Shown here: piece after piece, positions 21,095 to 55,100 of the stretch
Numbering within the stretch: the stretch's first letter is position 1
Layout of the letters: every line of letters starts with the position of its first letter
NCBI GenBank assembly: GCA_051362555.1
Contig: CM120642.1
Location: forward strand, 2,418,001-2,482,000
DNA length: 64,000 bases
Reading direction: 5' to 3'
From: Lingula anatina
Taxonomy: Eukaryota; Animalia; Brachiopoda
Notes under the pieces: generated by a model
Database searches by the model: none
What the model was told of the DNA's origin: nothing
Seen by the model: the letters and a program-made list of their open reading frames with translations, nothing else
Program-made: the position numbers and the translations under genes

Positions 21095-24000
21095 GGTGCA
21101 CTGCTGAATTGGTCACATACATGTATGAGTGTAGAATATATGTAAGAAAAAAGAACAGAAAACATGGCGTCATTGTGAATGTATTGTCTTTCTACTTTCA
21201 CTGTATATTTTTGTAAAATTATTTCGACAGAAAAAAGTTTTGGCTTTTCTCAGTTTACAACATATCGTACAATGTGTATTGTGTATTGTCAATTCTTTTT
21301 GCACGTAATAGAAGTGAGTTCAAACCGCACAAACATGCTTCTACTTGGACCAGTAAACAGCTTTAAACAACAACATTTTAATGTTAAAACTATAATTGCG
21401 TGCTGAACAAAATAAAAGAATTTTAGCCTACCTGGTGACCGCCAGAGAATCTTGACAAAAAGAGTTTCTGGGCGACTGAAGAGAGAAATCGGTAACATTC
21501 ACCAGCAGGGTGTAGCCACGTGCGGTGTACAGGTGGGTCAGACATGACAGGTTGGGCGGATACGGATACGGATATCTAGGTGACATGACTACCTGTGTGG
21601 TCCCTGGTTTAACTAAGATACTTGCATTGCATCCTGATAAAAATTGAAATTCAGAAAAATATGCTAGTGATGTTTTTTTTTTAAAACATATACATTGTGT
21701 ATGTACCGCCTTACAGATTATTTTCCGTCCTGATCACTTGACGCACCTATTTTGACGTCACAAACACGTGACTGGGAGGTAGTAGGTAGTTTTGATATAA
21801 TAGCAACTTATTTACATTCAAATGCAATTATTTAGGAAACATGTTAATGAGTAATTATAAAAAGGTTGTTCCTATGCTGCACGTACAATAGAGAAATCAT
21901 ACCCACCTTGGAAAGCGGTTCCATTGGTGTATACTACTGGAAACTTGGTGGATTGAAACTCTGTAAAGATTTGAAAAATGTACAACTCTTCAAGCAAGCA
22001 CCAAACTTTTATTTAAGGTCCCGGCACATATTATGGTTGCCGTCTCCTGAAACGGGATATTTGACCAGTAGCATAAGCACTGAATTTTATATGTATTGCA
22101 CATTCAATACATACACCTGTATCTTTATTCATATTACAAGAAGCATATTTACCCTATATGTGAGAGAAAAAGGGAACCAAGATATGTAAAACCGAGAAGC
22201 AAACTGATATAACTTATAACATACGGCAGCAACAATGTCACTGTCAGCCTGTGACGAACACTAAAAACCATCTTTCGTTAATATCAAAAATTACTGAGCC
22301 TGCTTCCAATGCAAGTGAGATTATATGAAGCTTGCTGTAAAGTTCTACTAGAAACGTACAAATATTCTCATATATTGCACAAATATTCTTATCTCATATA
22401 TTCCACGTACGTGATATGTGGTTGTTTAGAAAAAACAGAAGTTATAGAAAATAAACTACCTGAGCAGTCACTGGATTTGCCAGGAGTCAGATTGATGTCA
22501 TCAATGGCGATGTCGCCTCGATATTCTGTTACACCACTCGCTTCGAATATGATCTATAAAAGTAAACAGTAAGTGTAAATTTAATTGTAGGTTAATATCA
22601 GCTGGCAAAATACAACAAGAAATTGGATATTTCTATACTAAATTGCCCAAAAAATATCATGTTTGCCACTGAAAATAACGTTTCATTCGCGCCAACTATT
22701 GTTTTACGCACTTGGCTAAATTTGCGGTAGCTGTTCAATGCACTCCTCAAGTAATAGATGCGTTTGGGTCACTTATACACTTAAGCCGTACTTGCCTAAT
22801 TTTATGCATAAGTTCGTAACATTTTTGTCTTTTTAGTTGAAATTTGAGGACAGTTTGTTGCTGGCACCCTTGGCAGCTACGGGGAATTATACTATGTAAG
22901 CCAATTTTCCCTCACCTCTTTATCGAGGAAAAACAACATGCCATACCACAAGGGGTGCTCTAAGCTTCCACGTTCTTAAGCTAAACACAAAATATCTTTG
23001 TTATATATAAAAAAAATTATTCGAACTGATAACCTGATGGTATCCAGATTTTGGTGGTAGGACAATTTTGGCGGTCTCCCAGACGTCTCCCTGGTCACCG
23101 CTCAGAGACCATACCAATGTCTGGCTGGTCGTCTGCGCGAACGTTTTCAAGTACACCTTCAGGGTTCCAATATCGGCGCCGTTCATGTTGTAGGCAAACT
23201 GAAGCAAGTGGCACCTCTTGGCCAGGGAGAACCTTTGGCTGGTCATGGTGCGGGTGCCATTGCCACCATTAGACGCCTCGATGTACGCGTAGTAACCTAG
23301 AAGTAGTCCCATATGTACAATACTACTTGCACAAGTACCTAATGACAAACACACAAACAGTTGTGCGTCTGAGCTGATTACCATTTAAACCATCAAGACC
23401 ACACTGGGTCCGGTGTATAGACTACTTACCGTTGGATACACTGGGTCCGGTGTATAGACTACTTACCGTTGGATACACTGGGTCCGGTGTATAGACTACT
23501 TACCGTTGGATACACTGGGTCCGGTGTATAGACTACTTACCGTTGGATACACTGGGTCCGGTGTATAGACTACTTACCGTTGGATACACTGGGTCCGGTG
23601 CCACTGCTGGAAGTTTGACCGCGATTTCTTAGCCAAGTCTGTGTTCCGGATAAGGAATACTGACAAAACCCGTTTTCGAAATTGCACTCCAGAGGATCTG
23701 AAATGAATTTTATAACGTATTATCGGTCAATATTGAAACGTTAAGGGAGGACTGCAGCTTGGAAATTTTATCTTAAATGTGACGTAATATTGGGAATTTT
23801 GGGTAAAAAACATCATTTTCGGTTACCTGATTTTATCAGGCACATTCACAACTATAAACATGCTAATGGTATTATAACACTTGAACAAAGTACTACAAAA
23901 GGGGTTCAGGGGTTTTTATTTAAAGACATACTGTTTATTTAATCTATAAAAACGTGATTTTTAGTCCTATTCCACCCTAAAGTTCCTTAAAGCCACACTG

Positions 24001-27000
24001 ATAGCAGACAGAGATCAAGAGCGCAGTACAAACCTTTGCATATGGTGGTATACCCGGTCCAATAGCCTCCGTCAGAACATTCTCTTTGAAGTGAACCAGA
24101 CTTCAGTCCATATCGGCAGCTAAGTTTTACCTTAGCTCCGAAGACATAATTTTCAGCACCCGAAATTTTACCGAATTCTGGAGCTTGTAGCTGCTTACAA
24201 GTGGTAACTGCAAAAGAAATTCAACATGGGTATCAATATTACCAGAAATTAATACTTGTGTGAAGTAAGGGTTAACTAGATTTTGTGATGACATAAAAAT
24301 CTCTTTCGATTATAACAGTAGGCCTACTTGGTATCAAATAAGGAGTTTTTTGTTTTGATGTGAGAAAAATTGTCTCTTTCATAAATGGCACTTTTCTTAC
24401 CATTTCGATTTTCAAAATAGTAGTAGTACTACTATTACTACTACTATTACTACTACTTTCGATTTTCAAAATATTGTCAATACAGCCTGCCCTTTGTGAA
24501 GTGACATTTTGATTTTTGTAGCACCCACCGTTGCTGCATTTACTTAGTAGCCTACCGCCACTGAATTATTAAAAAAGTTTTTACTCTCCACCAGAGACAA
24601 TTATACCTTCACAAGTGGGAGATGCACCGCTCCACACTCCCTCGGCCGTACACATCCGATATATGTCCCCTTTCAACATGTAGCCTCGCTGGCAGCTGTA
24701 GGATACACGGTTAGAATACAGCGAACCACCAGAAACATAGCCATTGGCAGGGGCAGTCAAATTACCGCAGGACTTCGCTGTTTTAAACGGAATAAATAAA
24801 AAACGATATCGTTCATTATTGTTGCAGGAAAACTGAAGGAACGATAACATGCGCCAAAACATTTTTTGCCAGTATTTTTTTTTATATCTCATAGAAACAC
24901 AAATGATACATAGATGCATTAATGATAGTCCCAATTCTTTGGATATAATTTTACACAGATTTAAAAACATAGTAAAGCGGTGTCTTAAGACCCTGAATAT
25001 CTAAGCACAACTGAATGGTTAAATTTATAATAGAGGGTGGCAGTGATGTGGTGAACAACAACAACAACAGAGTAAAATGTTTGGTTTGATATAGAATGTG
25101 TGCCTACTATGCGAATATGCGAATATGAATATGCCTACTATGCATATTCGCAGCTGGCCCATGTGTTGTTTGTACTCCCTTCGCTAATTTAAGAACTGCC
25201 TTTACGCTCTTATCTGAACTAGACACCGGACGATAGCAGCGTCACGTTCGTGCCCTGTCACCTAAGGTGTGCATCAGAACACCTGTTAGAACCCCATAGC
25301 CGCATTAACCCAGAAAAACAGGTCAACACTCACGTGGACAAGTGGGTGTGGGTGAGTTCCATCCCTGCAGAGTACAAACAGCCGTTGCTTTCCCAACCAA
25401 ATCATGCCCTCTTCTACATTGGTAGGTGATCGAATCACCGACATCGAGTCCCTCGATGATTTCTATTGAGCCGTTGATGGGAGGTTTTGGAATTCCACAT
25501 GGTGTCACTGAAAACAGACTCTTTTTTTAATTGAAATTTATAAAGATTATAAAGTTTCTTTGATAAATAAGTATCAACTTCCTTAGTGCATTATAAAGAC
25601 ACAATTCCCTGTAGAAAATAATAATTCAGAAGATCCATATTTCATTTTTTTTAAAACCCAACGTGAGACCACTTTGCACAATATCCACTGGCCGTGTCCA
25701 ACACATAATGCAGGTCATGTAGCACTCACTGTTATACATGAGAGTGAAGCCACGGTCCGTGTTTGACATGTCGCTCTTCCAGTACACATCCACAATACTG
25801 GAGTTGGTCTTAACTGGTTCGGGTGGAATGTCTCCACTAGCAGTAACAAGCAGATTTCTGCGGTTATACCCCTATAATGGTGATCATTTACATGAGAGTG
25901 TTTCAGTATATTTGATATTGAAGTGGCATGTGTTAACTAAATCATGAACACTTAAATAAGAGAATGGGATGTATTATTAAGGCAAATGAATCGATGGAAC
26001 TGGGGCATTACAGCATTTTTTTTTCACTTATAGTCAATATGATAACCATTGGTTTAACATTCATAGAAATAAATATAGTCACTTTTCTTGGGAAAATGAC
26101 ATTTTAACGTGGCAAAGCAAGTGCTGCTGCGCTATTTAATTTTGATATACACAGTACAAAATACACAATTATGGGCCTATAATGAGCAACAGAAAATACA
26201 TGTCACAGAAAATACACAAGTCAATGTTACCGCATACAATTCCAACACGTCATAGTCGTACTCGGTTTGAAGCACGGGAAATGATATCCTGACCGACCGT
26301 CCAGTTGGGACAACGATTGACCACCGACAATTCTGGCTGACAGGATAGTTTTCAGGGTAATTTGGACTGTAGATGACGCCACTGGTGCTGTTTAACAGAC
26401 GGTAACTTGGGCAGTCAGCTGCAATAAAAGTGATATTTTGAAAGCGGTTAATTTTTTCTTTCGCTTGTTGTCATTATTTTTTGTAGTTGCATAGTAACTA
26501 ACATAAGTAAGTGGATCCTGTAATGAAAGTGTGAACAGTATAAATAGTAAGGATCACAAATGGAACTGATTCATTTTAGCCATATGATAAATTCAATGCC
26601 AAGATAAACATCACATGCATCCTGAATCAAAGCTGAATTATTGAAAAACTGTCGTATACCAATGTACGACCACAATGAAACTATGAGAATGGTGCGTTTG
26701 TAGAAAGGAAACCCTCGGTGCATAATCTGTATTTGAATACTGTCCTTCCTTCCTTCCTTACCTTGGCACCTTGGCGTCTCAGTGATGGGCCAGGTGCCGT
26801 TTTCATCACACCTGTATGTCACGTTTCTGGTCCCGTTATTCATGTACAGACCCTCTGGGCACGTGTAGGTGACGTTGCTGTCAAAGGGTACCTTGTTGTA
26901 CACCATGGTGACCTGGTCTGTGCCCGCAGGGGGTTCGCTACAAAATTCTGAAATAAAAGGGAAAAAATGAAATTGTGGCAAAACTGTACCTTTTGTGATA

Positions 27001-29093
27001 CCTTGCTTCTTTACCTCCACCTTACTAACGAGTTTTTTGTTTGTTTTTATCAGGGTTTGTCTGGTTGGTAGTGGGAAAATATCTCATAAAATTCTTCACA
27101 AACTTTGTTGAATTCGCATGATTGACAGTTATCTAGGAGACAAAGGAGTGATTGCATTTTCCGAAGCTGGGTGTCATAATATTCAACAAAATTCATTGCA
27201 CTAAACTTAAGCGGAAGTCTGTTCTGGGAGTGACATCTGGTGTACAGTCTGAAATTACCTTGTTTTCAACAGAATGTATGTGCTTTGTCCCCAGATACAT
27301 CTCAGTAAGCAGTAAATGGTCATCCTTACGGGGGGTCTGCTTTATTGCTTAGTCCGAAACTTCAAGGCATACGCGATAATATGTCTGATAATGGAATGAT
27401 ACCGATGAACAGCAATATACGTACCGACACAATCGCCCAGGCCTCTCAAGGAAATCTTGTCTACAGCGAGGTCACTATAGTAATCCGACCCACGGATGCC
27501 TTCAAAGACGATCTAAAATATTGCAATAGTTCTTTCATTTCCATTGGCTTCACATGTTCTGAAGCGACAGATGGAATACATTGCTGGAAATTAAACCGTA
27601 ACTGCACTACTATCCTGATTTGAACAATGAATAGTAGCCTACCAATTCAAATAACTTTTAGCGTATAATAATAATAATAATAATAATAAAAGCCAAAAAG
27701 GGTGACTCATGTCCAATTCCAAGCGTTTATTTTTATTTTTTAACTTTTGAAAGCCTTTTATTTTGGCAACGCGGTTGTAAGTTGACACCTAACCAGATAA
27801 TGCGGTAATTATTTCAAAAATGAATAAACATCGAAAACATGCCATGAATTTGAAGAAAAGAATCCTTTATCTGTTAATCTCGAATTTGAATGATTACACC
27901 AAGTATGAATTGATACCGGTACCTTAAATTTGCTCAGCTCTTTAGGTAGGTCCACCTGTGCCAAGAGCCACACACTTCCCAAGTTTCCTGACCGAGTGAA
28001 GAGCAGAGTGTTTTTATTGGTAGCCACGTCCCTCGCGTAAACATTAAAGGTACCCATGGTTCTGCCGTACATGTTGTAGTAGAAGGTCAATTTGGTCGGG
28101 CACATTCCAGTTTTAACAAACTGTTTACTGACCAGCTTAAATCGATCCCCGGTCCGACGGGGACTGGACGTCTCAGTATACATATAATACCTGCCTGGAT
28201 AAGTAAATAAACATTATTTTGGTGGGTATTCCAATTTTGGATTTTCTGCAGTCTTGAGTTTTTAGAGTCTCCATTTTTTTCCTTTTTTGAATACACCTTC
28301 GATTATTACTGATTATATGCGATATGAACATTATACCGCCTTATATTAATTAATCTAGTATTATGCCATCATGCATTTTTTTGTCTAATAGTTATATTAC
28401 AATGTTGTTGAAACATTTAAAGGGTGTCGGTACAGGACAAACAAGTTTGCCCCTTTACCCTCCTCGACAACATGTATCCTCCCCCTGATTATATGCTTTG
28501 GTCAACTCTACATATACCGTACCGTATACCATACAAAAAGACTACACATTTGTGGCTTTCCAAAATGGAAAAAGGATAAAATACTATATATCTCTCAGAT
28601 TTGATTTTGTGTCAAATTTTTTATATTTTAGGGAACATATTTGCTAACAAAGGATAAAGATGAACATATCTGGTTACTTTTATGACGATATATGTAATAT
28701 CTACAATTACAATGAACTCATGCGAATGCACTTACCATCGTAGGCTCCGCTGGGTCCCGTGCCACTGCTGCCAGTGGCTCCAGTAAGTCTTGTCCAGCCA
28801 TACCCTTCACTGGTAAATGAACATAAGTTACTCTCGAAACTGCATTCCCACGCTGTAATGAAGAACTTAGTCTAAATATTGAAGGAGTGTCTTGAAACTT
28901 AATCATTTCGTTCTCTTTTTTTATTTCAGATTTGCAGATGAATAATCATTCTCAACTGGAAACTATGCAAAAGTTTCATTTATCAAAAACGTTAATGTCC
29001 TGACTCGTCTAAGTGTTTAGTAAACTTACAGCTCTGTGCATGCAAAGTCTGCACGCCCACCAGGAGGAGACACAGAAACAGATATCCCTGCAT
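15623..29093 (-). CDS. Secreted mosaic protein: signal peptide-MAM-Sushi-CUB-Sushi-Sushi-Sushi-MAM-CUB-fibrinogen C-terminal (FReD) domain, 18 exons, ~1036 aa
   Basis: Phase-compatible GT-AG exons: 29093-29030 (MQGYLFLCLLLVGVQTLHAQS), 28852-28736, 28194-27923, 27512-27425 (MAM1), 26947-26762 (Sushi), 26418-26231, 25871-25730 (CUB1), 25507-25334, 24777-24607, 24207-24034 (Sushi x3), 23697-23578, 23296-23034, 22553-22460 (MAM2), 21633-21432, 20774-20554 (CUB2), 16963-16819, 16431-16224, 15904-15623 (FReD: YPRDCSE, TWMEYALGFG, DFWLGN, GGWWWDGC). Total 3111 nt, a multiple of 3. Confidence 0.88.
17230..19790. mobile_element. Decayed Helentron/HINE-like internal sequence in the CUB-FReD intron
   Basis: Recurrent motifs gccacacccc, tttcatgttcctaact (17334, 19121) and tatggta resemble the internal region of the 55300-58668 element. 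Ends not defined. Confidence 0.3.
19982..20079. repeat. 32-bp inverted repeat (31/32 match) around a (CA)n spacer
   Basis: gccgtatttttcaaccgaacgcattttgcaac (19982-20013) / gttgcaaaatgcgttcggttgcaaaatacggc (20048-20079). Confidence 0.9.
23401..23600 (-). repeat. 37-bp x5.4 tandem array amplifying the 5' splice donor of the first MAM2 exon
   Basis: Unit acactgggtccggtgtatagactacttaccgttggat, identical copies; the minus strand gives ...TCCAACG|gtaagtag five times. Confidence 0.95.
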
Positions 29094-29128
29094 CTTCAGC
29101 TTATGATCTCTTGTCTGGTGTCTAGTCA

Positions 29129-29138
29129 TATTTATATG
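29129..29138 (-). promoter_or_regulatory. Candidate TATA box of the MAM/CUB/FReD gene
   Basis: CATATAAATA on the minus strand ~40 nt upstream of the ATG at 29093. Confidence 0.4.
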
Positions 29139-29210: not shown

Positions 29211-31220
29211 AGGCCGGGTCACACTGCGCTTGCGACCTTTTTGCAACCTTTTTGCAACCACAAAATCTGGCGGTCGCTTGCGATCACTTTGCAAGCTAAT
29301 TAAGAAGCTGTGGCCAATTTTGATCGGCAAGCAGTCGCAAACCGGTTGCAACAAGGTTGCAGTATGGTATCTGCAACCTCTTATAGACCATCTTCAAGTT
29401 ATAGGTTACCAGGCGCACACTCTTTGCCGAGCGATACACAACCTGTCTGCAACCACTTGGTGACCGAAAACCGGTTGCAGGACTGTAGCAATCGCTTGTC
29501 AACTGGTAGCAGCAAAGTCGCACAGGATATATATGTTGCCAACTTGTGACAGTAGCTGCTTTCCCATAAATTCCCCTCTCAAAAAACAAAAAATTTCTAG
29601 TAAAACGACTCCTTTTCAAAAAGACGGGACTGCTATAATCATTGACTTTGTTTACCAAAGAAGTAAAACGAGTAAAAGACCTCGAAAATACTGGGTGAAC
29701 CCGTGGATTGCAAGACGCCCCTTGTAAGGCGATTACAAACATTTGATGAAAGAACTTCGACTTGAAAATCAGGAAGTTTTCATTTCCTTCCTAAAAATAG
29801 AACCAACAATGTTTTGTGAACTTTTGAAAAGACTACACCCTCACCTAACGAAACCAGTGCTGCAATAAAAACATAAACTTGCATACATTTTAATCCTTGT
29901 TAATCTCATAATACTCTTTAATATATTCTTGTTCAAATACTTGGTCTCTTTGAGGTCGCAAGGCCTGTGCAGTTACGGTATCACTGAACAAAAAACCTCG
30001 GTGCAGCACCGATAACCTCCTGGCGACCGACAAACCTACTTGTGGTATCCAGCCGCTTGCTATCAGGTCGCCGACTGCTTTGCAACCGCTTTGCAACCCA
30101 ATGTGTGGTTTTCCCTTTGTCTTTTTAACCCTAGGCGTTTGCCACTTACAATACAACGTAACTAAATCGTGACAAGTCATGCGCATCGTGTACTTTTTAC
30201 ACTCTCATCCTTGTAGTGAGGATACCAAGCACTGGGAAGATGTTAAATTGTTTGTGTTAAAACTATTTTTAAGTCTATTGGACACACTTTACGATTTGTT
30301 CAATTATTTGTGGATAATTTTGATTGTTGACATTATGATATTAAATAGCAGCTATACCTTGCTGATTAAATTGCTTTTATTTTCCGTTTTCTCTGCATTC
30401 GTGTATTTGTTTCATTGTTTACTCTGATAATATAGCTTTGCAAATTTTAAATAACATACAACGATATATAATTGAGGTTTTCGGCATTTTACCTATGATT
30501 TTCGCAAAATGATAAAATAAATAAACGTAGCGTCAAAAAATCTTACATTGCTTTTATCATCACATTTTTTTTTTTTTTTTTGGTTTCGTAAGTGTGAAAT
30601 GCCTGGTATATGAAAGCCTTGGCAATTGGTATAAAATATTGCCAACAAATGCAATTTACGTTTTCTTTTTCTAAAATATTACAATTTACGACCTTGATAT
30701 TTAGAAGGCTTACATAACAAATTATGAAAAAGTCTTTGCCCAAATAGACCACCATCCTACGCCTATTTTATTGCAGTCGCTTGCAACCTTCCTGCAACAT
30801 ATCTTCGAACGCCTGCGATCGGTAAAAAACCTGTTAGCGACCAAGATACTAAAGACCGTCAATCGACCATGCAGTTACAACTGCAACCTTCTAGCGACCT
30901 GCTGCCGACTACTTGCGACTGGTAAAAAACTTGTAAGCGACCAGTCGACTAAATACGGTCAATCGACCATGCAGTTGCAAATGGTATGCTACTGGTTATA
31001 GCAACCTACCGACAACCAAGAAGAGACCGATAGGCAACCTTTAGGAAACCGATAATTTTCATCTTTAGTCGCACTGGTTGTCGGTGCACAAAAAATGGCC
31101 TTCATGTGTCAACGATCGCAGGCGACCTGTTAGCAACCTTATGCGACCACTTTAAAACCTATGGCAACCTCTTTGCGACTGAGGTTGCCAAAAGGTTGCA
31201 AGCGCAGTGTGACCCAGGCT
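29211..31220 (+). mobile_element. Non-autonomous PIF/Harbinger element (2.0 kb) with a transposase remnant
   Basis: ~38-bp TIRs aggccgggtcacactgcgcttgcgacc... / ...ggttgcaagcgcagtgtgacccaggct; TAA TSD (29208-29210, 31221-31223); subterminal gcaacc/gcgacc repeats; 29667-29855 encodes KRPRKYWVNPWIARRPL*GDYKHLMKELRLENQEVFISFLKIEPTMFCELLKRL (Harbinger nuclease N-terminus). Confidence 0.9.
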
Positions 31221-31575
31221 TAAGATGAAGTGCGCGTGCACGCACGCTGTGTCATCCTAAGGCCAATCGAACAACATTCTCGTCTTGTGCTTGGGTACGC
31301 TGACGAATAATGCCTTGTTTCTGCAGGTAGTTTAAAAGCAAATTAGACTAAACGGTGTTGGATGCGGTACATGATAGAGACTAATCTTCTTAGTCCGGTT
31401 GTCTTATTTCAGTAACACACATGCTCAAAGTCCCACACAAAGAAAACACGAATTCGATTGCACAAGGTCCATGAAATATTACCGGAAATTGATTTTTTTT
31501 TAGTTTAACAAGATGGATTTTGTAAACTCTATTAACATGTCCCCCTTGTTTCATTTTAAACACACACACACACAC

Positions 31576-40148: not shown

Positions 40149-41358
40149 TCAGTCTTCTCCCTCGTCAGGATTCATGTATTTGTTCAGGTCCATGACATCT
40201 TTCAGTTCCTCGCTCTTCACCATCTCTGAACACATGGGGCAGTTCTCTTCTGTCTCCAGTACACTAAAATAAACATGTGGAAATTATTTGGTAGATAGAC
40301 AAATTCATAGTTCAGCTATTATTTAAGAGCCAAGTAATAAGCACTCCCCTCAACGTGGCCAGTAAACAGGATTATTGGTGATCTGTCCAAACAATGGAAT
40401 TCAGAAAGTGAACTGGTGAAAGGGGTTGTCCTGTACTACTAATGCACGGCTCATATTTGATGTATTTCTTTTCAAAACAGCCTATGTGGTAGAGAAAATC
40501 AACAAATTAAAAAATAGCACTTTCACTCCAAAAAACGCTGATGTGGCATCTTCAGCAATATGACTAACTTTTTCTGAAGACAAATAATGAAAATTACATG
40601 GAATTATTAAAACGACCAGTTTGATATAGTCATTTTCAACCAGATTCTGGCTAACAGGGCATATAAACGTAATAACCACTGAATTGTAGGCACACATGCC
40701 AGAAGGTACACAGACAAAAGGAAAGACAGACAGACACTTAGACAGACAGTGAACATACCTAAGAAACTCATCCTTGAGAGCAGGGAAATCACACCTGGGG
40801 CATGCTGTCACATTGTCCTTCGTCATGTGGCGTCCCTGCAAATATTCACGATAATTAGGCCATTTAGCTTTGAATGTACAACTTTTATCTTATTATCATC
40901 TAGATATAGAACCATCCCAACTATTGTTGCTTTGCCAGAAGTTTTTCCATTTTATCTGATGATTTTGAAGGTAGGTTCTATCAAGTTGAAAAAAAAAAAC
41001 TGACTGAATGAAAAGGTAAGTCAACTCACAGTAATGATACAGTATGGAATGTTATTCTTGCAGTTGGGGCAGACCAGCTCTGTCTCTGCCTGGGCGTACC
41101 CACACTGGGGACAGGGGGTCGTGGGCTCGTCTTCCTCTGTTTTATCAGGTTTTCTGTAAAACATAATGTGATCAGTTTCTTTTAGCTGCCTATATAAAAC
41201 ACAAATTTAGGATATCATATATCATAACAAAGCAGCTTACATGCCATAAGATGATGGTTTCACAAAGCCCTTCCTAAATTATACAGGGTGCAGCAAGGTG
41301 CTTAATTTTTTTTTTTTTAAACCCATGTGAAACAGTCCGGTCATCTGACAGGGTTGAA

Positions 41359-41393
<35 letters not shown>

Positions 41394-42945
41394 ACATTTG
41401 AGATCACTCAAGGAAATATATTTATTACAAGATTAATAAAAAAGTTATATGTGTCTTTGAATGCATGTACTTTTTTCATACTTTGAACCTCTGATATTAT
41501 ATATAAGATTCATTCCACTTTTCTTCTTGCATTTGACAAAACATCCTGCTCAGTGTTTATTTTAACTCAAATCCACAAAATGATACCACCTGCATTAGGA
41601 CTGAGAGAAATTCACACTTTCCGAGGCATCAATTTTCCTGTTTCCCGTTTTTCACACTCTGAGACATCAATTTTCACTTTCTGTTTTTCACACTTTCGAA
41701 GACACTTTCAATTTTGACTTCCCGTTTCCTGTTTTTCACTCAGCTCCTTAAAACACTATCTCTTGAATCTTGTGCACCACTTACCTCACTATCTGTTCTA
41801 TTTTCTTCTTGTATTTCACATCTATCTGGTTTCTGTACTCTGGTCTCATCAGCATGGCTGCATAGCTGAAGCAGGAATTCTTCAGTCCTGCCTTGTGGCA
41901 CTCTATCACAGTGGACGTGAGAATCTGGACAATATCTGAAAATACAGAACTCAATTCATTTACAACTGAGAACTTGAACTTTCAGATATTCATATCTTTG
42001 AATTCTACACTGGTCAATGATACAATCTTAACCAATATTAACAATTATTAAATGACTTTTATCTAAAAATATATGTTATTACTTAAACCAAACTGCTACT
42101 TTTAAATGGGAATAAGAAACCCCAAGTTGTCATCAGTCAAATTTTTAAGCAATTTAAAGATGCATTCAAGGTCAAATTTTGCCACAAACTAATTCATTTC
42201 AATTACTCCAATTAACTGAAGAAATACTGTCAACTGAAATCGGCCATAATTAATATTAAAGTTAAGACTTCTACTTACGAGAGGGAAATTTGCTGATGTT
42301 ATTGGCCACACGTATCAACATCCTGGCCCCTTTGAGATGGTCCCCTCTCTTAACATGAACCTGAGGCCAGACACAGTAACATGTTTAATAAAAGGTCCCT
42401 TAGTTAAGACATATATACATTATATATTATATAAAGTGTAGCCTAAGATGACACAGGAATCACTCATTACATGACCACACAAACTCTACAGACATCATTC
42501 TAGGCTGGTCAAGTGGCAACACATTCACACCTACATCTAACTCTGCAATAATATTTTTCATAACGTTCATAATTTCAATCAATTCAGTCTTCAATATGTT
42601 AACAAGCTTCCCAGAGCTGATATATTATGCTTCTGTTTATTAATTATTCAAAATAAAATATAAAAAATTTCAGCAAGTACAAATAATTTCAGCAAATACA
42701 TTATTAGAGCAAAAATTAAATGTAGATAATTTACTGCCCAGGAAACCTATCCAGTGTAAACTATGTGCCCTGTCACTGTTCATTCAGGTATGTTGAGGTC
42801 AAGTTCTTACCTTTGCCAGTATATAACTGTGAAGAATCATTAAGTTATGAGCCATTTCTGATGGGATCTTGATTTTCTGCTGCTTCAGTTCCTGGTACAT
42901 GCTGAACAGAACATCATGGGCATCTCGGTAGTTTCCTGACAAAAA

Positions 42946-42992
<47 letters not shown>

Positions 42993-45900
42993 AGTCCAGT
43001 TAAAGAAAACAGGCAAAATGTAGTGCTGTTACATCTTTGCCATTCCCAGTACTATATCATGACACCACTTGACAACATCTCTTTCTGCTTATTAAGCTCA
43101 TATCTGCAGGCAATGTGAAAACTTGATTCAGTCTAAGTCATATCTCTTGAGATTAGAAAGTGACCTAAATAACCAAATGCTAGGGTGTGACTGGCCAGGA
43201 AAAAAAAGGAAATAGAATTAGAAACAGGAAAGTACAATGAACCATATTTGTAATGCCACTGACAGCTGATGCATGCATGGGTTCTTACCAGCATTCTGCT
43301 CCTCCCTGGCTATGATAATGGCTGTTCTGGCAGCCTCCCTGAACTGTTTCAGTGCCATATACAGGCGGAACAGGTACTTGCTGGCCTGGAATGGGACAAA
43401 TAGGAATGCATGAGATATAACTGGCATTGATATTAATAATATTAAATACTCTCTGTGTTGAAATAATGTTTTCAATCATGCTGTTAGACTTCTTCAGAAA
43501 AGAAATCGTGTCTTGCAAAATATCATAATTATCATAAGAAGACAGTGAAGTCATGTCAAAAAACATTATATCTTAGTTTAAAGTAATGTAATATGAATTG
43601 TAAGACAGTCAATGAAAGTCTGCCTCACCTTTAAGTTGCTTTTATGTAGTAATTTTGAAGAAACACCCAAGAACATTAAGGACATTTAGTGAAAAAACCA
43701 ATCTAGATAGACAGTCATTTACCTTGGGCACACCATCTGTTTCTCCCAGTAGATAATCAAACAGCTGATGGGTGAGAGCGTCATCATTGGCCTGCCCCAC
43801 TGTCTCTATGGCCATCCCTATTGCCTTACTATCATCACTGTTAGAACAGCGCAGGAAATGTTTGAGAGCCTAGAAGACAAAGAAGATAAGGAAATCATTT
43901 ATAAACATTATTATTACACTTAAGTGGTGTCCTGCAGAACAACTAAGTACATGCATTGCGTTAAAAAACTAAGAAATTTAATCCCATTTTTTTTTTGACC
44001 TACTTAAAAGTAATCTTTCCTTTCTACTTAAAAGATACATTGATTTCGCACAAGAAATAAAAATGAGTTGTGTGTATTTATGACCTTAGTGCGTGCGTGT
44101 GTGCGTGCATGTGTGTGAGAGACAAAAAGCAAGCATGTATTTGAGCAGGAACAGTGTCTACCAAATTCTTACCCTTCCATATTGGGCACACAAGAAGAAA
44201 AACTTCCCAGCCAGGAAGTGGTTCTTTTCATTCTCAAAGTACAGGGCAATACTCTGGTAGTCCTCTGCAGTGGCATCAGAGCCTGGAATATACATATTCT
44301 AAATTACTTTGTCACATATTTAGGTTTCTTAAACCTTCTGTTCATTTTTTAAACATTTTTTACTTAAACAACCCGTTCAAAAATAAATAAATAAATGGAA
44401 TATGAAATAATTCATAAACTTAAGCTACCTTAAACTAAGTACACCTACAACCAGCAATTGCATCCTTACTCTTCCATTTCACCACATCTCTTTTAAGGTG
44501 TAAATATCATCCAACAGAAAAGGAAACCTTGAATACCTATAATCTCTGCATACACTTCCATCTGATCATGTTGCTGTGCCAGCTGGAAGGCCTCATCATT
44601 GCACTTGGACATCACTAGGAACTGGATGGCAGACGCATAATCATTCAGCTTCAAGAAAAACCTGGATAGAACAAGAACCTGCTGTGTAATAAATGTAACA
44701 CAAGTGCTATATTTCAAAATAACATTTAAAAATTACAATGAAATAAGATATTCTAATAATCAATGATTACAATAAGTAAAAACCTCATATGTCAAAGCAA
44801 ACATATTGTTAGGATGCTGTAGCTAGTGGTATCCCAGTGACTTACTTAGCCACCATCTTGGCTCCCTCCACTGACTGTGTTTCCCTTACTATCCTCACTG
44901 CATCTTCTGGGTTCTGGAGGTGATCCAAGTTGATCCTAAAAATAATAACATCACACAGAGTAGAATTACATATCTCTATTATTACAGTCTGTGTCAAAAT
45001 ATTTCTTAGCCCGCAGGTCCTTTGAGTATAAAATTCTAAGAAGAAATAAGGTCCACTAGCTGGACAAATTCTTATACAAAATAGTTACACATTTTTCTTC
45101 TCAGCTTTAACTTGACTTGCATTTGGTGTGGGGACAAAAGTTGACACTAAGGACTGATATTAACAGGTAGCATGGTAGCAATAAACACTGAAAACTGGCA
45201 GAGAAAATATAAGACAACCCATGTATTGCTTTCAACTTGATGTGCAATATATTAATCAATAACTGGTCTTTATTGTAATGTTGTAAGATGACAAAAAGTA
45301 CAAGTAGTGTGCATCTCAGGTTATCTCACACTAACAACTCAGGTGATAATTACAAAACAATTGCTTCAGAACAGTGGAGTACACCTTAGTTTTTATTACT
45401 CAGGGTTAAGGTGTTTAATACTAAAACCTCTTATCCTGGAACAAGTGTCATGGACATTGCAATTCACACCTGATATTTTGGGACCTGCTCAGTCACGGAG
45501 CATTCTAAGGGACTACACCAATAAGACAGATAATTAATTTTTAGTTGAACAAGTAAAGGCGATAGAGCCAGTTCTGGGATAACATCCTATATACACATCC
45601 GCAATCAATAATTCATTATCACTTGAGTTGTAAACTTGACTGAAACAGTTCTAGGCTGCACATCCTTTATATCTTAACCTTGACATCCTTGAAGTTATTC
45701 AATCCAGAGTATCATCAAGTACGTGTAACAGCAATAATTTAGTTTGCTATCTACCTGATGACACTGTCCCAGTCCTTGGCATTCTCATACGCCTGTGCTG
45801 CCTCCTTGTAGCGGCCATCTGCCTCCTTAGCCTTGGCATACTGGGCATGGATCTTAGGGGAGGTCACCTGGGGGAGCAGCTCACCAACCTTGGCCCTGGG

Positions 45901-48900
45901 GAGAACACAGTTCCACACATTTATCTGCCAGTTTTGCTACTTGTTTATTGTACTTCAGACCATTAAGTATAACACAGTTACTTTCCTATATCAGCCAGTG
46001 TTAGATACTAGTTTATTCAACTTGCAACCATTAAGTATAATATGTAAAAGAGAAAAGAATTAAAGTAAATATTATATTTACAACAGTAATTATTATAAAC
46101 TGACATGAATCACATGCTTCCCTTTACCTCATCACATGTCCGATATAACCTGCTAGTTTACACTGACAGTAAGTTATTATCAGGATTTATTAGTAATAAT
46201 GATAATAAAAAAATTGAAGAAGAAGAAGAAAGAGAACCACAATATGGTTAGTCATACTTCATATAGTATTTACTTTCTTTTTCGTGACAGTAATTCTATA
46301 GGTATTATGATAATAATAAACATCTTACCAGTTTTTGGACCTAATGTAGACAGCCGCAGCCTTGTCATAGTAACCACCTTTCTCATACAGCATAGCAGCC
46401 TCAGACCATTGCTATAATGATAATTTTAAATAAATATATAAATAAACAAAATAATAAAAATGAACAAAAATGAAAATTGATATTTTTTATATATCAAAAA
46501 AATGCTGCTTTGAAAAACGTATTGCAACTACCTGTGGTTTGACAAGGACAAGAAGTTTTAACGTACTCGTAAACATAATAAATTTTAAATTTTCTTTAAA
46601 TTACCAAGCCATATTATCCCTTTTCCACCATATGTATGAACTTGTAATTTGCAAGTCATGCCACTGTAACAACTGAGCAACTGGTTTAATATAATATGTT
46701 AACTATTTAAATGCTGAATTCTCATAGAATACATAGTGATTAAAAAAGTAAAATATTGGGCTAATTCCCATACCTTCATGTTTTCCAATATCTGTGCACA
46801 ATCCTTCTTCAGTGCTCTTCCTGGCATCTGTACAGCCATACCTACACCCCTGGAAATATATAGGAGAATATGATAATACAGACATAGTGCATATGTACAG
46901 CCATACCTACACCCCTGGAAATATATATATAGGAGAACATGACAATACAGACATAGTGCATATGTACAGCCATACCTACACCCCTGGAAATATATATAGG
47001 AGAACATGACAATACAGACATAGTGCATATGTACAGCCATACCTACACCCCTGGAAATATATATATAGGAGAACATGACAATACAGACAGTGCATATGTA
47101 CAGCCATACCTACACCTCTGGAAATATATATAGGAGAACATGACAATACAGACATAGTGCATATGTACAGCCATACCTACACCCCTGGAAATATATATAG
47201 GAGAAAATGACAATACAGACATAGTGCATATGTACAGCCATACCTACACCCCTGGAAAAGTATAGGAAAATATGACAATATAGACCTAGTGCATCTGTAC
47301 AGCCATACCTACACCCCTGGAAAAGTATAGGAGAATATGACAATATAGACCTAGTGCATCTGTACAGCCATACCTACACCCCTGGAAAAGTATAGGAAAA
47401 TATGACAATATAGACATACCTCCTGATATCCCCAAGTCTGATGGACATCCTAGCCACCCCGGCAGCACAGTTCTCGTCATGTTCCCTGTACGCCTCCTCC
47501 TTGGTGATCCCCTTCTCATAGTGCATCAAGGAGTTGGTGTAATCCCCAGTGAACTCCAGCTGCTGGGCATACTCCTTGGAGATGAACGGGATCTGGTCGG
47601 GGGCCAGCGCCTTGGCCAACTGCAGTGCAGAGTCCCAGTGCAGCAGGTCCCGCCGCATCTGGAAATTGAGGAGATTTATTCATTAAGGTGAATTGAAGAA
47701 AAAAATACTGCAGCAATGTTAAGTTGAAGATTTTCACTTCCCAGGTTTGACAAATAAATTGAATAAAATATACCAAAGAGTGTGATGTTAAGTGAACACC
47801 CAGATCTAAAATTTAGTGATTAATTCATAAATCTGTTTCAACATATCACTTAAAATAATAATGATAATAATAATTTTTAAAAATAATGATGATAATAAAA
47901 TAAATAATAATCATTAGTTACCTCTAGAGCAGCTTGAGGATTACTGGAGGCCAGAAACAGATCCTGAGCCCTGTTAAAGTCCTCAGTAAACATAGCTATG
48001 TAGCCAGCCAGCAGATTTCTGTCCTCAGAGTCCTTGATAGCCTGCAGTGACATCACCATCCCCACATCTCCTATCTGTCTGTACACACGCATGGCTGCAA
48101 GGGACAAGATTTAATCAGAATGTCATAGACATGTTTTGTTCTACCAAGGTGGCAAGGCAATTTCTTTAGCTCCTATTTGTATGCACACGGCTAGAAATGA
48201 AAGAAAGAACTTTGCTGGTTTCAGTGAAAATAATGGTTGAAATAGTTTAATATTGGTAGCATCATTTCTTAAACAACTGTTAGTGTGAACAAATACCCTT
48301 TGGTTTAGATAACTGTCTAAAATTCAGCAACATCATTTTAATGTTTTTTTTTACCAAAGTCTATCTCCAGATTATAGAGGGCAGCTCTGCCCAGGTCCAG
48401 CCAAGACTCTCTGGAGTCCAGGTGAGCACTGAGGGCCCAGGCGTCCTTGTATCTCCTCAGTTTTATACACTGGTCTAGAGCTGTCTTCACCTAGAACACA
48501 CACAGGAAATGATAGCAGTGCCAGGTTCACATACTAGTGAATACTATAACCTTTGTGTAAGTGCACACACACACACCAAAGGACACCAGTAAGTTACCAC
48601 AGAAGATGCTGCAGTGTTACGCCACTCTTTTACCAACAGTTATGTGAATACGTTTAGAATTTCATTCAGACTAGTTTGACTGAGGGCAAGATGAATAAGT
48701 CACCATCACTGTTTGTGACTTGATTCTATATCTAATGGCATTACATCACATTTTTGTTATCATTATTTATTTTTAATATGTATGATTGAAGAATATCTTT
48801 CCTCTCCTTTCGACAAAATTAGTTAGTACATATTCATACAGGCAATGTGTTGCCACAATTTCATCAATTTAGTAAACTGTAATAAGATCTTATATTTTAT

Positions 48901-51900
48901 ACAAAAATAACTTTCATTTCACTGATTAAAGTCTTCTGTGCATTAAAACATTTCAAGTAAGTAAAAGCCTGTGGTAGAAAAATATCATATGCAGATACAG
49001 ATAATGTTATTAATACTAGTGGGAATGCAAGTAATAATTTCACTTACATCAGCAGGAGGCATCTCCTGTAGGTTTCTGCCATCAAAGCTGTGAGTGTCTA
49101 GGACCAAGTTAGAGGTCTTCCCACTCTGTGTCTGCAGGGTGACCTCTCCATTGTATAACAACATAGGCACCTGGCCATAGGGCAGCTTAGTGACCCCTAC
49201 CAACTCACATACTGACTCTGCAATAGGATATAATATCACATTAGGGCAGCTTAGTGACCCCTACCAACTCACATACTGACTCTGTAATAGGATATAATAT
49301 CACATTAGGGCAGCTAAGTGACCCCCACCAACTCACACACTGACTCTGTAATAGGATATAATATCATATTAGGGCAGCTTAGTGACCCCCACCAACTCAC
49401 ACACTGACTCTGTAATAGGATATAATATCATATTAGGGCAGCTTAGTGACCCCCACCAACTCACACACCGACTCTACAATAGCACAACTCACTATATATT
49501 TATCTCATTTTAGTTAGTGAATTTAAAGTTTATATAATTGTACAATCCAACTTTTTAGTTGCAATGAACATTATAAAAATATTATTTTCTGTTAGTTTCA
49601 AATAAAAATTGGTGTTAAAGACCAGCCTGTTGAAACCTTACATACACACTATATATAGTCACAGGTACCACATATTTAGTTTGGTAAAAAATACCCAATG
49701 TTTTCATCACAGTGTCATATGAAAAAAATAAAAAAAAAAAAACTCAAAATAACCTATAAAAAAGTGACTTTGACTTTTTGAAATAATATAAAGAGCAAAA
49801 AATTTAAACTTCATATACATTTTACATTTGTGCAAAATAAAATGCATCATCCACCTTACCATTGACTGTTTCTCTGCAGTAAACATTTGTGTACAATTTC
49901 TCCTCATCAAAGGCCACAAAAATTCCCTACAACAAAAATAAAAGATTTGCACAGATCATCAAGCACACTTTGTGAAAGGAAATGTTTTTTAAAGTTGTAA
50001 AATATTTTATGGAAAGCTGTTACATATGGCATCAGGACACTATAAAATGGATCCCTCCTCTTCCTGCGATGAATTTATAATGATCATTTTAAAAATGAAC
50101 AATGTGCTGAGAATTTCAAAAATATGATAAGAAGATATTATATTACAGTGAAATTTTTGATTTCATTGGACATTTCAATACATCATAAATCTATGCACTT
50201 TAAATGATAAAATAAAAATGATTAAATATCTGCAGTTAATATATCTAAAATACCTTGTCACTTAACCAATTTTCCCACAGGATGCCTTTGGTTGTTGGTG
50301 AGAAATCTGGTATTTCTACCACCTGGTCATTTACCTAGAATAACAAAACCATTGTATGAAAAATTAATCCTAAGATCAAGTAAACAGTTCAATAAACACT
50401 TTCTATACTGTAAACTGAAGTGCCATTCCGGACAAACTATTGCATTTGTTTTTTCTAGACTAAGTTGCCACCTCTTTTCATTTCAATCTCAATAATTCAT
50501 TCTTTTATTTTAAGCAAAACTTGTAGGAAGCCAACATGCTGGACATCAAAACTGCATCATCTCTTCTTGTTTTTCATAAAACCTTGTAGACATATAATCA
50601 CATAGATAGGGGCCATTAGCTAGTAAACAGATAAGATAAACTGCTCCCCACCATGCAACTTTCACAGTTCAGTGGGACATTATCATCAATTTCCGGATAC
50701 AACTTACAGGGTTGTAAACAAAGCCATCACTCTTATCATCAATGAAGATGATTCTAGTTCCAGTGGGATCCACAAATATCTTCCTGATTCCCACCATGTG
50801 TCTGTACTCATTCACATACTGCCAGTCCTCAATGAAGAAGTAGTGGAGGCCCCCTGACTGAAATAACAGAAGACTCTAAGCTGGTATTTTATGGACATTT
50901 AATACCGTATTTGAGCTTTACCCTACAGATTGTGATTATAAATATCGACACATTATTTTTATACTCTGTTTAACAATTGGTACTTTTAAATTTGGCACAA
51001 CATTATCTCCCAAAGTTCATTTTAAATATAGTAAGTGGAGAAAACACTTGCAAGTGATTTGCCTAAGAGGCAGTTAAAATCTGGCTCTAACTGGCTAAAA
51101 GGGCTGTTACTCTCCTGGTTTCTTAACTTTGAGAGACAGTCAAATGAAAGCATTCAAGTCTTTTCTATTTTCTATGTTATTCTTTGAAGAATTAGTGGAG
51201 CCCACCGAGTACTTATTTAAAATTGATATCTTAGCAACTGAATCATAAAATAACTAAATCTACATCTTGACAACAAAACGACCACTTGCTGTACAAAAGC
51301 AGATGTCAATATGACTTGTGACAAAGTGATACACATACTCAAGCAAACTGACCATTGTAAATTGACCACTTATGTAAAAAGAAGAGTTAATACAAGTGCC
51401 TGATAAAGAAAAAACATGTCTCTGCACTGCATGTAATAGTGACTAGCCCCATCTTTAACATACATTTAAAAATAGGATTGATAAAAAGCCACTGTGACCG
51501 TGTGATTTTATCTGAAGACTACTTGATGTGACAAAAGATGCCAAGAAAATTATGAAAATTAACAGAAAAGAACAAGACAGAAAAGCAATAAACCTTTTCC
51601 AGATTATACTTTACACAAAAATTAATATAAAAATAATTACCTCTCCCTTATTTTTCTGAGGAGGAGTAGGAAAAGACTTAAATATGTGGCATGGAAAGCA
51701 TGTTACATCCCAATTAAAAATTCTTTGTAAATACCCCATATGGTTTTTGAACTCGAAATTCATCAGATGAACTACTGGTATTCTTTTCATCTAAAATTAC
51801 AACTTTCTTTTTGTTAATCAAATTAAAAATTTTAAGGGCCTACTTACATCTGTCCCAAATATGAGGAATTCTGGGGTGAGGCAGTGACAGGTGATCTTGG

Positions 51901-52092
51901 TGTCAGCCTGGTCCTTGTCTGGGAAGAGGCGGGTCTCCCTGTCATCAGATGCACCCTGGTCACCCTCAATCTGGAACACAATCACAGGAATCTCAACTAA
52001 CACAATCAAAGCAAGGGCAGCTCAAATAATGTCTCTACTCATTCAAGTTTTATTTTTGTTTTGTATTCACAGCAGAAGTTGTAGTTTAAATA

Positions 52093-52183
<91 letters not shown>

Positions 52184-55100
52184 AATGAGCTCGTATTATA
52201 ACATTTCAAATTGGTTACAAAAAATCATACTGGCTTATTCATCAACAAGGCATAAATTTGCAGAATAAATGCCCCTAATTTTACAACTTAGTCTCTGTCT
52301 CCATAAAAGATAATTTCTTACCATGTGTAACTGCACTTTTCCCTCAAACCTGACAGCAGCATAGTCTGCATTCATCTTCAGAGACTGCACAGTGCCCAGG
52401 TATTCTCTGTCCTTTAACTTCTCAGGGGGAGCCCCAACTGGTAGAAGACAAACATATAAAGACATACTTTATAAATAAATAAAATAATATTAAAATGTCT
52501 AAAACAAGAATAAATGTATGTCCTAGTAATTTGTGAATAACAACAAAATATTCAATTTGTTCAACATGTCCAGGTTATCAAGTAGTATCTTAGTCTATCT
52601 AAATTATCATTATTATTGCTGTTGAATGTTTTTACCTTCACAATCCAAGACATAAAACCATGCCCTGTTAATACCTTCACAATCCAAGGCATAAAACCAT
52701 GCCCTGTTATTACCTTCACAATCCAAGACATAAAACCATGCCCTGTTATTACCTTCACAATCCAAGACATAAAACCATGCCCTGTTATTACCTTCACAAT
52801 CCAAGACATAAAACCATGCCCTGTTATTACCTTCACAATCCAAGGCATAAAACCATGCCCTGTTATTACCTTCACAATCCAAGGCATAAAACCATGCCCT
52901 GGTATTACCTTCACAATCCAAGACATAAAACCATGCCCTGTTATTACCTTCACAATCCAAGACATAAAACCATGCCCTGTTATTACCTTCACAATCCAAG
53001 GCATAAAACCATGCCCTGTTATTACCTTCACAATCCAAGGCATAAAACCATGCCCTGTTATTACCTTCACAATCCAAAGCATAAAACCATGCCCTGTTAT
53101 TACCTTCACAATCCAAGGCATAAAACCATGCCCTGTTATTACCTTCACAATCCACGGCATAAAACCATGCCCTGTTATTACCTTCACAATCCACGGCATA
53201 AAACCATGCCCTGTTATTACCTTCACAATCCACGGCATAAAACCATGCCCTGTTATTACCTTCACAATCCACGGCATAAAACCATGCCCTGTTATTACCT
53301 TCACAATCCAAGGCATAAAACCATGCCTTGTTATTACCTTCACAATCCAAGGCATAAAACCATGCCCTGTTATTACCTTCACAATCCAAGACATAAAACC
53401 ATGCCCTGTTATTACCTTCACAATCCAAGACATAAAACCATGCCCTGTTATTACCTTCACAATCCAAGGCATAAAACCATGCCCTGTTATTACCTTCGCA
53501 ATCCAAGGCATAAAACCATGCCCTGTTATTCATGCCCACAGCCAGGTGATAGGGTCCTAGGCCAATGAAGGCTGGCTCCACATCAGCTGCCAGCACTATA
53601 GGGGCATCCTGGAGGACAGAGAAGGTATAGCAATAAGTTTCCAAATAAAAATTTTAACTCAGTAATCCATGAAAGAAAATGGAACAAAAAGCTACTTGCT
53701 GACTCCACAATAAAATATGCACATGCTCAAGAATTCAACTTACATCAAAAAAATAAAATCAAACTCACTGCATCACTTCAGAATCTAGATATGCCTTAAA
53801 GTCAGCATAAACAACATTAAACACAATATCTCTCATTTTTCAACACAACGAAAATGGCTTGTTTAAATCGCGACCCAACAAACTTTCAACTTATGCATAA
53901 CATCAACTAATATCAGGCACATTTTCAAAAATGGTCAGTAACTTCGGCGAGAGATTCATCTGATTAAGTTACACATTCACACACCCACACGTATAAGTGC
54001 TTATCTATACAAATCTGTAAAATATTACTCACCCCGGACACATTATCCTGTACTGTCACCTCCAGCAGAGAAGTCAGGTAAGCCAGCCTGGTGTTATATG
54101 TATCAAACACCATGGGCAGCTTGGTCAGGTAAACATGGAGACTGCCCGCCTTGGTGGACACGGCCAGGAGCTGACCATCATCTGTCCAGTTAATTTGGCC
54201 CAGTTGACGCTCATCGTCCAGGTTCAGAATAGCATAGGTTTCCTTCAGGTCCGATAGTTCATGGATCTTCACACTGAAGATACACACATGGGCATGTATT
54301 ATATATAATGGCAATTATACGAATTTTATCTTTTTGTAGAAAAGAAGCAGAAAATATATGTTCTTGGATTCAACTGATGGAGCTTTGAGTTCAATTGTTA
54401 AAAGATTAAAAAATACTTGTAATCTGCTTTGAGAATCAGGTACAAAATATTTAAAACTAATAAGAGAGACACTCCAAATAAACAAGATAAGACATTATTG
54501 AACATTTTTGCCAAGAGGAAAAAAATCAACATCCTCATCTACTCACATGTTGTCTCCACAAGAAGCAGCTTTGTTCAGGGACAGTGTGATGGCTATGGAG
54601 GTTAGGTTGTCTTTGTGGTTACGAGCCTGGAACAGCTCCTGGTAGAAATATTAATTAATGAATTTTACAATAGTTTAGTTCACGTTTAATAAATGAATAT
54701 TTTAAAAAGTTCTTCAAATTTGTTGTCAAAGAAAAGAATTCAATGTGATTACTGCAGTGTAATTATTAACTTCAACATGTTTTTATGGCAAAATTACATA
54801 TAAAGTTATCATCAAAATATTTAGACTAAATACAGCTAACAGATTCATTATTTATGACCATGGGGACAGTATAAATTCAGTCAAACATTAAACCCAGTGA
54901 TTGTTCTAAGTATACAGTTAAAAAAATACCAATGAACAAGAAAACTGCATTACCACCTGCTAGCATAGGATGTGAAAAATGATATTTACCAAAATTCTGT
55001 CTCTGCGTAACAAAGTGTTAACTGAAATAAGCTCTACCTACCTGTCCAATCTCCTTCATATGTGTGGAGATAACTACAAAGAAACCCTGTGAGAAACCAA

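What the first reader, a model, noticed from the sequence alone, without database searches (positions are those of the whole stretch)
23401..53530. Recurrent splice-junction-anchored tandem amplification: four unrelated minisatellites each multiply a real splice site
Seen: four arrays with unrelated units (37 bp x5.4, 65-69 bp x9, 64 bp x~5, 39 bp x23) in two genes. Each unit spans an exon/intron boundary. Donor arrays grow from the exon end into the intron and acceptor arrays grow upstream of the exon start, and the exon-proximal copy always gives the normal protein. The only other multi-copy 30-70-bp array I saw (41610-41740) is old and not at a junction. Established: tandem duplication of splice-site-containing sequence is the Rogers model of intron gain/expansion. 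Inference: either a junction-biased mutational process (R-loop or splicing-coupled repair, or rolling-circle re-integration of tiny circles), or selection keeping only exon-touching expansions that can be spliced out. Either way the spliceosome must choose among 5-23 near-identical sites. The count is small, so enrichment needs a genome-wide test.
Basis: partly seen in the sequence, partly recalled or inferred. Interest (0 to 1): 0.85.

Follow-up and report, generated by a model that had tools for sequence, protein, structure and literature searches.

The report
Brachiopod splice-site "mirage" minisatellites
In two genes of the lamp shell Lingula, short pieces spanning an exon edge and its splice signal are copied head-to-tail 5-23 times into the intron; this repeat type is already known from lancelets, chickens and a human gene, and here it is likely a tolerated scar of DNA repair, because RNA checked at two of the four arrays splices almost only at the real site.

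Summary
Observation confirmed. Four unrelated arrays (37, 65-69, 64, 39 bp) copy an exon edge plus splice site, in a MAM-domain gene and in WDR19/IFT144 of Lingula anatina. They are 'mirage' minisatellites, described in amphioxus, human F7 and chicken; this scan noted them three times elsewhere in this genome. Arrays B and C occur in two public DNA runs and vary in copy number. Those runs also carry a fifth array, absent from the window, at the other end of intron B. RNA: 22 of 23 junction reads at B and 3 of 3 at C enter the real exon; 4 reads lie inside array B. A and D were not checked in reads. Junction placement beats uniform seeding (4 seen, 0.5-1.3 expected, p 0.0005-0.018, post hoc). 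Introns B and A look old, so this is not Rogers intron gain. Extras: D's 22 decoy donors are in frame without stops; intron B keeps only 38 non-repeat bases, and three of four collapsed array introns are unusually short (p 0.01, post hoc). Known kind, new lineage; cause of the junction bias unresolved.

The parts
23401..23600 (-). Array A: 37-bp unit = last 23 nt of a MAM exon + first 14 nt of its intron; 5 identical donors, then a 15-nt partial exon copy. Distal donors give a stop at codon 546 of the model
23578..23697 (-). MAM-domain exon whose 3' end is amplified in array A
15626..28852 (-). MAM/CCP/CUB/fibrinogen-C gene, 18 exons modelled by hand, 5' end not found
46824..47418 (-). Array B: 65-69-bp unit = about 40 nt of intron end + first 26 nt of WDR19 coding exon 21; 9 acceptors; fills almost the whole 570-nt intron. 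7 of 8 decoys give an early stop, one (adds 201 nt) is in frame
   Evidence: RNA and DNA reads
47382..47419 (-). All that remains of WDR19 intron 20 when array B is collapsed: 38 nt (shortest actual intron of the 49 in both models is 184 nt)
47414..47459 (-). Source of a fifth array that is NOT in the window: last 40 nt of exon 20 + 6 nt of intron + 4 filler letters (50-bp unit), a donor array at the other end of intron B, seen in DNA runs X1 (joint depth 129) and X6 (427)
   Evidence: table 5c
49178..49482 (-). Array C: 64-bp unit = 24 nt (7-nt filler + 17 nt intron end) + first 40 nt of exon 17; 5 acceptors; all 4 decoys give early stops; a likely two-copy allele in X6
52627..53530 (-). Array D: 39-bp unit = last 37 nt of exon 11 + GT; 23 donors, all in frame with no stop (13-aa repeat); the original intron start follows the last copy
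40149..61783 (-). WDR19/IFT144 gene, 34 coding exons (numbered from the first coding exon)
41519..41538 (-). Weak, possibly old copy of the end of exon 31 in its own intron (18 of 20 letters, score 30), beyond the degenerate 38-bp array
51185..51206 (-). Weak, possibly old copy of the start of exon 14 in the upstream intron (19 of 22 letters, score 29)

Best explanation
These are 'mirage' minisatellites: locally born, copy-number-variable tandem repeats of an exon edge with its splice site, which likely arise by out-of-register DNA repair and are likely tolerated because splicing takes the copy next to the exon. Step 1 (inferred): a repair or recombination intermediate re-anneals 37-69 bp out of register across an exon edge and leaves two copies, with short homology (D) or a few filler letters (C, fifth array) at the joint. 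Step 2 (variant blocks and allele differences shown; process inferred): slippage or unequal exchange changes copy number stepwise. Step 3 (shown at B and C; inferred at A and D): exon definition and first-site scanning, as worked out for human F7 IVS7, pick the exon-proximal site, so the protein is normal, with a small leak of array-containing RNA at B. Step 4 (inferred, about 0.35-0.4 on its own): the bias to junctions most likely comes from the border between conserved exon and highly polymorphic intron, where inter-allele repair starts in the exon and fails in the intron, helped by the exon anchoring the array against deletion.
For: Units span true splice sites; proximal copies rebuild P0001 exactly. 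Same anatomy as amphioxus mirages (10-160 bp units, both boundary types, length-variable, normal mRNA; passages), F7 IVS7 (abstract and Discussion) and chicken exon stuttering (passages). DNA runs X1 and X6 hold B and C joints with different copy numbers (depth on the B unit about 500-860 in X1 against 57-99 for single-copy sequence; about 110 in X6 against 49-77) and a fifth array at the B donor. RNA: 16 (X12) + 7 (X15) reads join exon 20 to the acceptor, and 15 + 7 continue into true exon 21; 3 of 3 X12 junction reads at C join exon 16, and 0 of 7 reads carry the distal-copy letter. Variant blocks in D (copies 7-10; 19-21) and B (1-3 vs 4-8). Other alleles diverge within 4-17 nt of splice sites at three edges, and C's inner units carry the intron end of one allele type while its far end carries another. 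Microhomology and templated filler are hallmarks of polymerase-theta tandem duplications in C. elegans (PMC8654963 passages).
Against: A and D have no read evidence; P0001 supports D's proximal donor only as an annotation. The genotype of the RNA samples is unknown: array B is seen in X12 but not in X15, and array C in neither RNA run, so clean splicing there may reflect shorter alleles. 4 X12 reads (3 starts, same strand as the exon reads) lie inside array B while the other introns of the stretch have no depth, so tolerance is not complete. Only about 6 in 100 of each RNA run was read. Filler letters are weak evidence: a 6-mer has a nearby copy by chance 9% of the time. C's mixed ends could also come from age rather than recombination between alleles. 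Enrichment is post hoc, and the fifth array fell in an exon-dense 1.9 kb where a 50-bp unit spans a junction about one time in four by my rough estimate.
Confidence: 0.7

Rival explanations
1. No special origin: Lingula makes small tandem duplications everywhere; exon-internal ones are purged, and this window shows a chance or selected cluster on junctions.
For: Window chosen post hoc; n is small; the loosest null gives p = 0.018; three non-junction arrays exist; in chicken, intron-only stuttering accompanies exon stuttering.
Against: The null already removes exon-internal seeds and still expects only 0.5-1.3; a fifth array in other haplotypes is again on a junction; unchecked notes report the same excess in two other windows of this genome.
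Confidence: 0.25
2. Length filler or ratchet: arrays are kept because they keep otherwise too-short introns spliceable. Once an array exists the unique interior can be lost, after which the array cannot collapse.
For: Collapsed array introns rank 1, 2, 5 and 30 of 49 by length (38, 133, 198, 386 nt; rank-sum p = 0.010). Intron B is an old position yet keeps 38 unique nt. X6 has few acceptor copies but many donor copies at the same intron, and no allele with a long unique interior appeared in X1 or X6.
Against: Post hoc, n = 4; 133 and 198 nt are normal intron sizes in animals (general knowledge); short remainders could equally result from deletions during array turnover; no genome-wide intron size distribution was available; contigs drop rare alleles.
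Confidence: 0.15
3. Transcription- or splicing-coupled mutagenesis (R-loops, hairpins) or rolling-circle re-integration makes the arrays.
For: A is 100% uniform with a non-integer copy number; the sense strand of WDR19 is G-skewed.
Against: Array edges do not differ from 93 other edges in DNA hairpin energy, GC or G-skew (p 0.21-0.48; low power); B, C and D show ordered variant blocks, and X6 shows a likely two-copy stage of C.
Confidence: 0.12
4. Regulated splice ladder: the in-frame donors of D (or the one in-frame acceptor of B) give WDR19 isoforms with variable inserts.
For: All 22 D decoys keep the frame without stops and score like the real donor (21 at 8.1, one at 6.2); two echinoderm and one sea-urchin homologue have short inserts at this loop.
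Against: P0001 has one copy; none of the listed homologue segments shows this repeat; 39 bp is a multiple of three by a one-in-three chance; F7 uses only the first donor even where later ones are in frame.
Confidence: 0.05

Closest known systems
Amphioxus 'mirage' minisatellites (Adh3, troponin C, globins BflGb6/BflGb9, PGBD5). Seen: passages of PMC3087553 and PMC3902484; the original Adh3 paper (PMC117041) was not held
   Same: Locus-specific units spanning donor or acceptor boundaries, similar unit sizes, allele length differences, normal splicing, several arrays in one gene.
   Different: Brachiopod, not cephalochordate; somatic instability not tested; here two different arrays occupy opposite ends of one intron in different haplotypes, and one intron is almost all array.
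Human F7 IVS7 37-bp VNTR (PMC1557585; abstract and Discussion read)
   Same: First unit spans the exon/intron border, 5-9 identical donors, only the most upstream is used; direct model for A and D.
   Different: Single human locus, donor side only; D here has 23 donors all in frame; B and C are acceptor arrays.
Chicken dot-chromosome 'exon stuttering' (bioRxiv 10.1101/2025.09.16.676548; passages)
   Same: Exon-edge copies in the adjacent intron (over 90% start at the border, 1-44 copies), length-polymorphic, confirmed by long reads; repair or gene-conversion origin proposed.
   Different: GC-rich microchromosomes with massive intron-only stuttering; this window is about 37% GC with few intron-only arrays.
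Rogers (1989) tandem-duplication model of intron gain (seen only as cited in PMC3087553)
   Same: Tandem duplication of splice-signal-bearing sequence.
   Different: No new intron is made here; the arrays decorate existing introns.

Membership tests
Mirage minisatellites | Repeat unit spans a real exon-intron boundary | tested here: met
   (4 of 4 arrays)
Mirage minisatellites | Head-to-tail minisatellite-size units of local origin, unrelated between loci | tested here: met
Mirage minisatellites | Copy-number polymorphism between alleles | tested here: met
   B, C and the non-reference donor array in X1 and X6; A and D not examined
Mirage minisatellites | Normal splicing kept, decoy sites largely silent | tested here: met
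   B 22 of 23, C 3 of 3 junction reads; 4 array-internal reads at B; RNA genotypes unknown; A and D not examined
Mirage minisatellites | Somatic instability (reported for Adh3) | not testable with these tools
   needs small-pool PCR or long reads of one animal
Rogers-type intron gain | A new intron position created by the duplication | tested here: not met
   B position shared with 3 homologous fragments; A position shared with the paralogous MAM domain; C and D positions not tested directly
Chicken exon stuttering | Exon-edge copies in the adjacent intron | tested here: met
   4 of 98 edges strong, 2 weak
Chicken exon stuttering | GC-rich, repeat-saturated chromosome context | tested here: not met
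   window GC 32-42%; introns 34% GC
Rolling-circle amplification | Uniform copies laid down in one event | tested here: inconclusive
   fits A only; B, C, D carry ordered variants

The most novel reading that the evidence does not exclude
Mirage arrays are not just tolerated but locked in as intron-length filler: WDR19 intron 20, an old intron, has lost all but 38 unique bases and is kept spliceable by an acceptor array on some haplotypes and an independently born donor array on others. Splice-site minisatellites would then be a ratchet that replaces intron interiors with exon-derived repeats, fed by a mutational bias at exon edges in highly polymorphic genomes.
Probability: 0.15. Interest if true: 0.65.

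Novelty: new member of a known kind. Interest (0 to 1): 0.32.

Why it matters
The class is known but little studied, and the papers I read leave its origin open. A brachiopod case shows it is not an amphioxus or bird oddity. The arrays are natural tests of splice-site choice: 23 in-frame donors with no nonsense-decay safety net (D), and 9 acceptors of which three score above the real one (B). Two independent arrays on one intron make the question 'mutation bias or selection on intron length' directly testable with population long reads. Practically, such arrays can mislead gene prediction and read mapping.

Tried and rejected
No whole genome was held, so the genome-wide test could not be run. 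The run search listed no RNA holder; raw RNA runs of the same species label were laid instead. A planned survey of non-reference arrays across the 3' part of WDR19 returned no data, so the allele survey covers only 47355-49245, and A and D have no read evidence. Hairpin energy, GC and G-skew of 5 array edges vs 93 others: no difference. The old 41623-41727 array as a decayed copy of the exon-31 end: alignment score 22, below the 28 reached among 4,328 non-adjacent control pairs; not supported. The 146-bp array was set apart as likely transposon-borne but kept in two of the four nulls. Templated filler as proof of polymerase theta: too weak. A homologue search for the MAM exon gave 2 distant hits and no Lingula protein, so that gene model is by hand. 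Papers: 'mirage + minisatellite + amphioxus' 2 hits; 'mirages + exon-intron + tandem repeats + splice' 1; 'Lingula anatina + minisatellite' 0; broader searches (listings only) showed no brachiopod report. The library lacks most subscription papers, and bioRxiv supplements were not open. The 2002 Adh3 paper was not held.
Full report
Observation. All sit in minus-strand genes. One exon of the larger gene is 100% identical to Lingula anatina WDR19 (P0001), and a spliced model with the exon-proximal copies reproduces P0001 with 0 mismatches in 1347 aa. The other gene is a MAM/CCP/CUB/fibrinogen-C protein modelled by hand as 18 exons with an open frame of 1031 codons (Pfam on 3 exons). Array A repeats 5 donors, B 9 acceptors, C 5 acceptors, D 23 donors. 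Three further arrays with period of 30 or more are not on junctions: 39 bp x2.1 outside both genes, an old 38 bp x2.7, and 146 bp x14.8 inside an element with 15-nt inverted repeats. The growth direction and the intact proximal copy are what any junction-spanning duplication must look like.

More than chance? Of 98 exon edges in the two models, 4 have a fresh copy in the adjacent intron (scores 46-80) and 2 more a weak one (29-30; the maximum among 4,328 non-adjacent pairs with introns under 1,100 nt was 28). With seeds placed uniformly, wholly exonic seeds removed, 0.48 to 1.29 junction arrays are expected against 4 seen: p = 0.0005 (window, without the transposon array), 0.002 (window, all 7), 0.003 (gene bodies, 5 arrays), 0.018 (gene bodies, 6 arrays). 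These are post hoc. The genome-wide test could not be run.

Real and polymorphic. I laid two RNA runs and two DNA runs on 47355-49245, which holds one unit of B and one of C. DNA contigs of X1 and X6 (two studies; X1 may be the assembly's own sample) show unit-to-unit joints for both arrays. Depth on the B unit is about 500-860 in X1 (single-copy 57-99) and about 110 in X6 (single-copy 49-77), so copy number differs; these contig depths are rough. X6 has a contig that reads as a two-copy allele of C. Both runs also show a joint from 47459 back to 47414 with 4 letters between: a 50-bp donor array (40 nt of exon 20 + 6 nt of intron) at the other end of intron B, absent from the window, at depth 129 in X1 and 427 in X6. 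All three kinds of go-back joint in DNA were on splice sites; the other three DNA joints belong to a divergent intron allele. The stretch is exon-dense, so the fifth array is modest independent support.

Splicing. About 6 in 100 of each RNA run was read. At B, 16 + 7 reads join exon 20 to an acceptor, and 15 + 7 of them run on into true exon 21. At C, 3 of 3 junction reads (X12) join exon 16, and 0 of 7 reads carry the letter of the distal copies. Against full silence: 4 X12 reads (3 starts), on the same strand as the exon reads, lie inside array B, while the other introns of the stretch have no depth; if that animal's array is as long as the window's, this is roughly 3% of exon depth (my estimate), from intron retention or distal acceptors, which the data do not separate. 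RNA genotypes are unknown. In silico, distal sites at A and C and 7 of 8 at B give early stops, but all 22 at D are in frame and stop-free. A and D have no read data (one search returned none).

What it is. This anatomy has a name. Amphioxus 'mirages' are minisatellites spanning exon-intron boundaries in Adh3, troponin C, globins and PGBD5, variable in length and without aberrant mRNA (passages). Human F7 IVS7 has 5-9 identical donors, of which only the most upstream is used through oriented scanning (abstract and Discussion). Chicken dot-chromosome genes show 'exon stuttering' in 236 introns, mechanism open (passages). I found no brachiopod report in the library, but this scan's own unchecked notes describe the same thing in three other places of this genome and in other animals. 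Rogers-type intron gain does not apply: three short homologues lose similarity at exactly B's codon, which I read as genomic read-through at a shared intron, and the paralogous MAM domain has A's intron.

How it likely arises. D has short homology at its joint; C and the fifth array have 7 and 4 filler letters that resemble nearby sequence, as in polymerase-theta duplications (passages of PMC8654963), though a 6-mer matches nearby by chance 9% of the time. Ordered variant blocks and a likely two-copy stage favour stepwise slippage or unequal exchange over one rolling-circle event. Array edges show no hairpin, GC or skew signature. Exons are 50% GC and conserved, introns 34% GC, and other alleles diverge within 4-17 nt of splice sites at three edges; C's inner units carry one allele type's intron end and its far end another's. 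I therefore favour out-of-register repair between alleles at the exon edge as the source of the bias, at about 0.35-0.4; this is inference.

What is left over. Collapsed, the array introns are 38, 133, 198 and 386 nt, ranks 1, 2, 5 and 30 of 49 after removing repeats from all introns (p = 0.010, post hoc). Intron B keeps only 38 unique bases, and the two DNA runs pad it to different extents from its two ends. That allows a bolder reading, arrays locked in as length filler, which I put at 0.15.

Verdict. Real feature, known kind, new lineage. Interest 0.32.

Noticed in passing
window 55333-58666: Likely non-autonomous transposon in WDR19 intron 7: 15-nt perfect inverted repeats enclosing a 146-bp x14.8 satellite and a 9-bp GC-rich repeat.
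   Followed up: partly
window 35036-36124 (+): Single-exon rhodopsin-family GPCR, 363 aa (Pfam 7tm_1).
   Followed up: partly
window 29212-31223: Element with long inverted ends by eye, upstream of the modelled MAM-gene exons; looks like a decayed DNA transposon.
   Followed up: no
window 23385-23415 (-): The 15-nt partial copy ending array A continues with letters that loosely resemble the exon end of the paralogous MAM domain, one base short; it may be an older, decayed copy of the exon end.
   Followed up: partly
window 48491-49047: A strongly divergent, shorter allele of WDR19 intron 17 is present in both X1 and X6, diverging 8 nt from the acceptor.
   Followed up: no
window 52437 / 53494: Lingula WDR19 has about 3 extra residues at the exon 11/12 join compared with most homologues; three echinoderm homologues have 11-13-residue inserts at the same loop.
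   Followed up: no
window 7364-7616: A block around an (AT)n tract is duplicated in tandem, and a 60-bp piece at 4843-4910 recurs at about 7545-7612, suggesting rearranged transposon ends (seen by eye).
   Followed up: no
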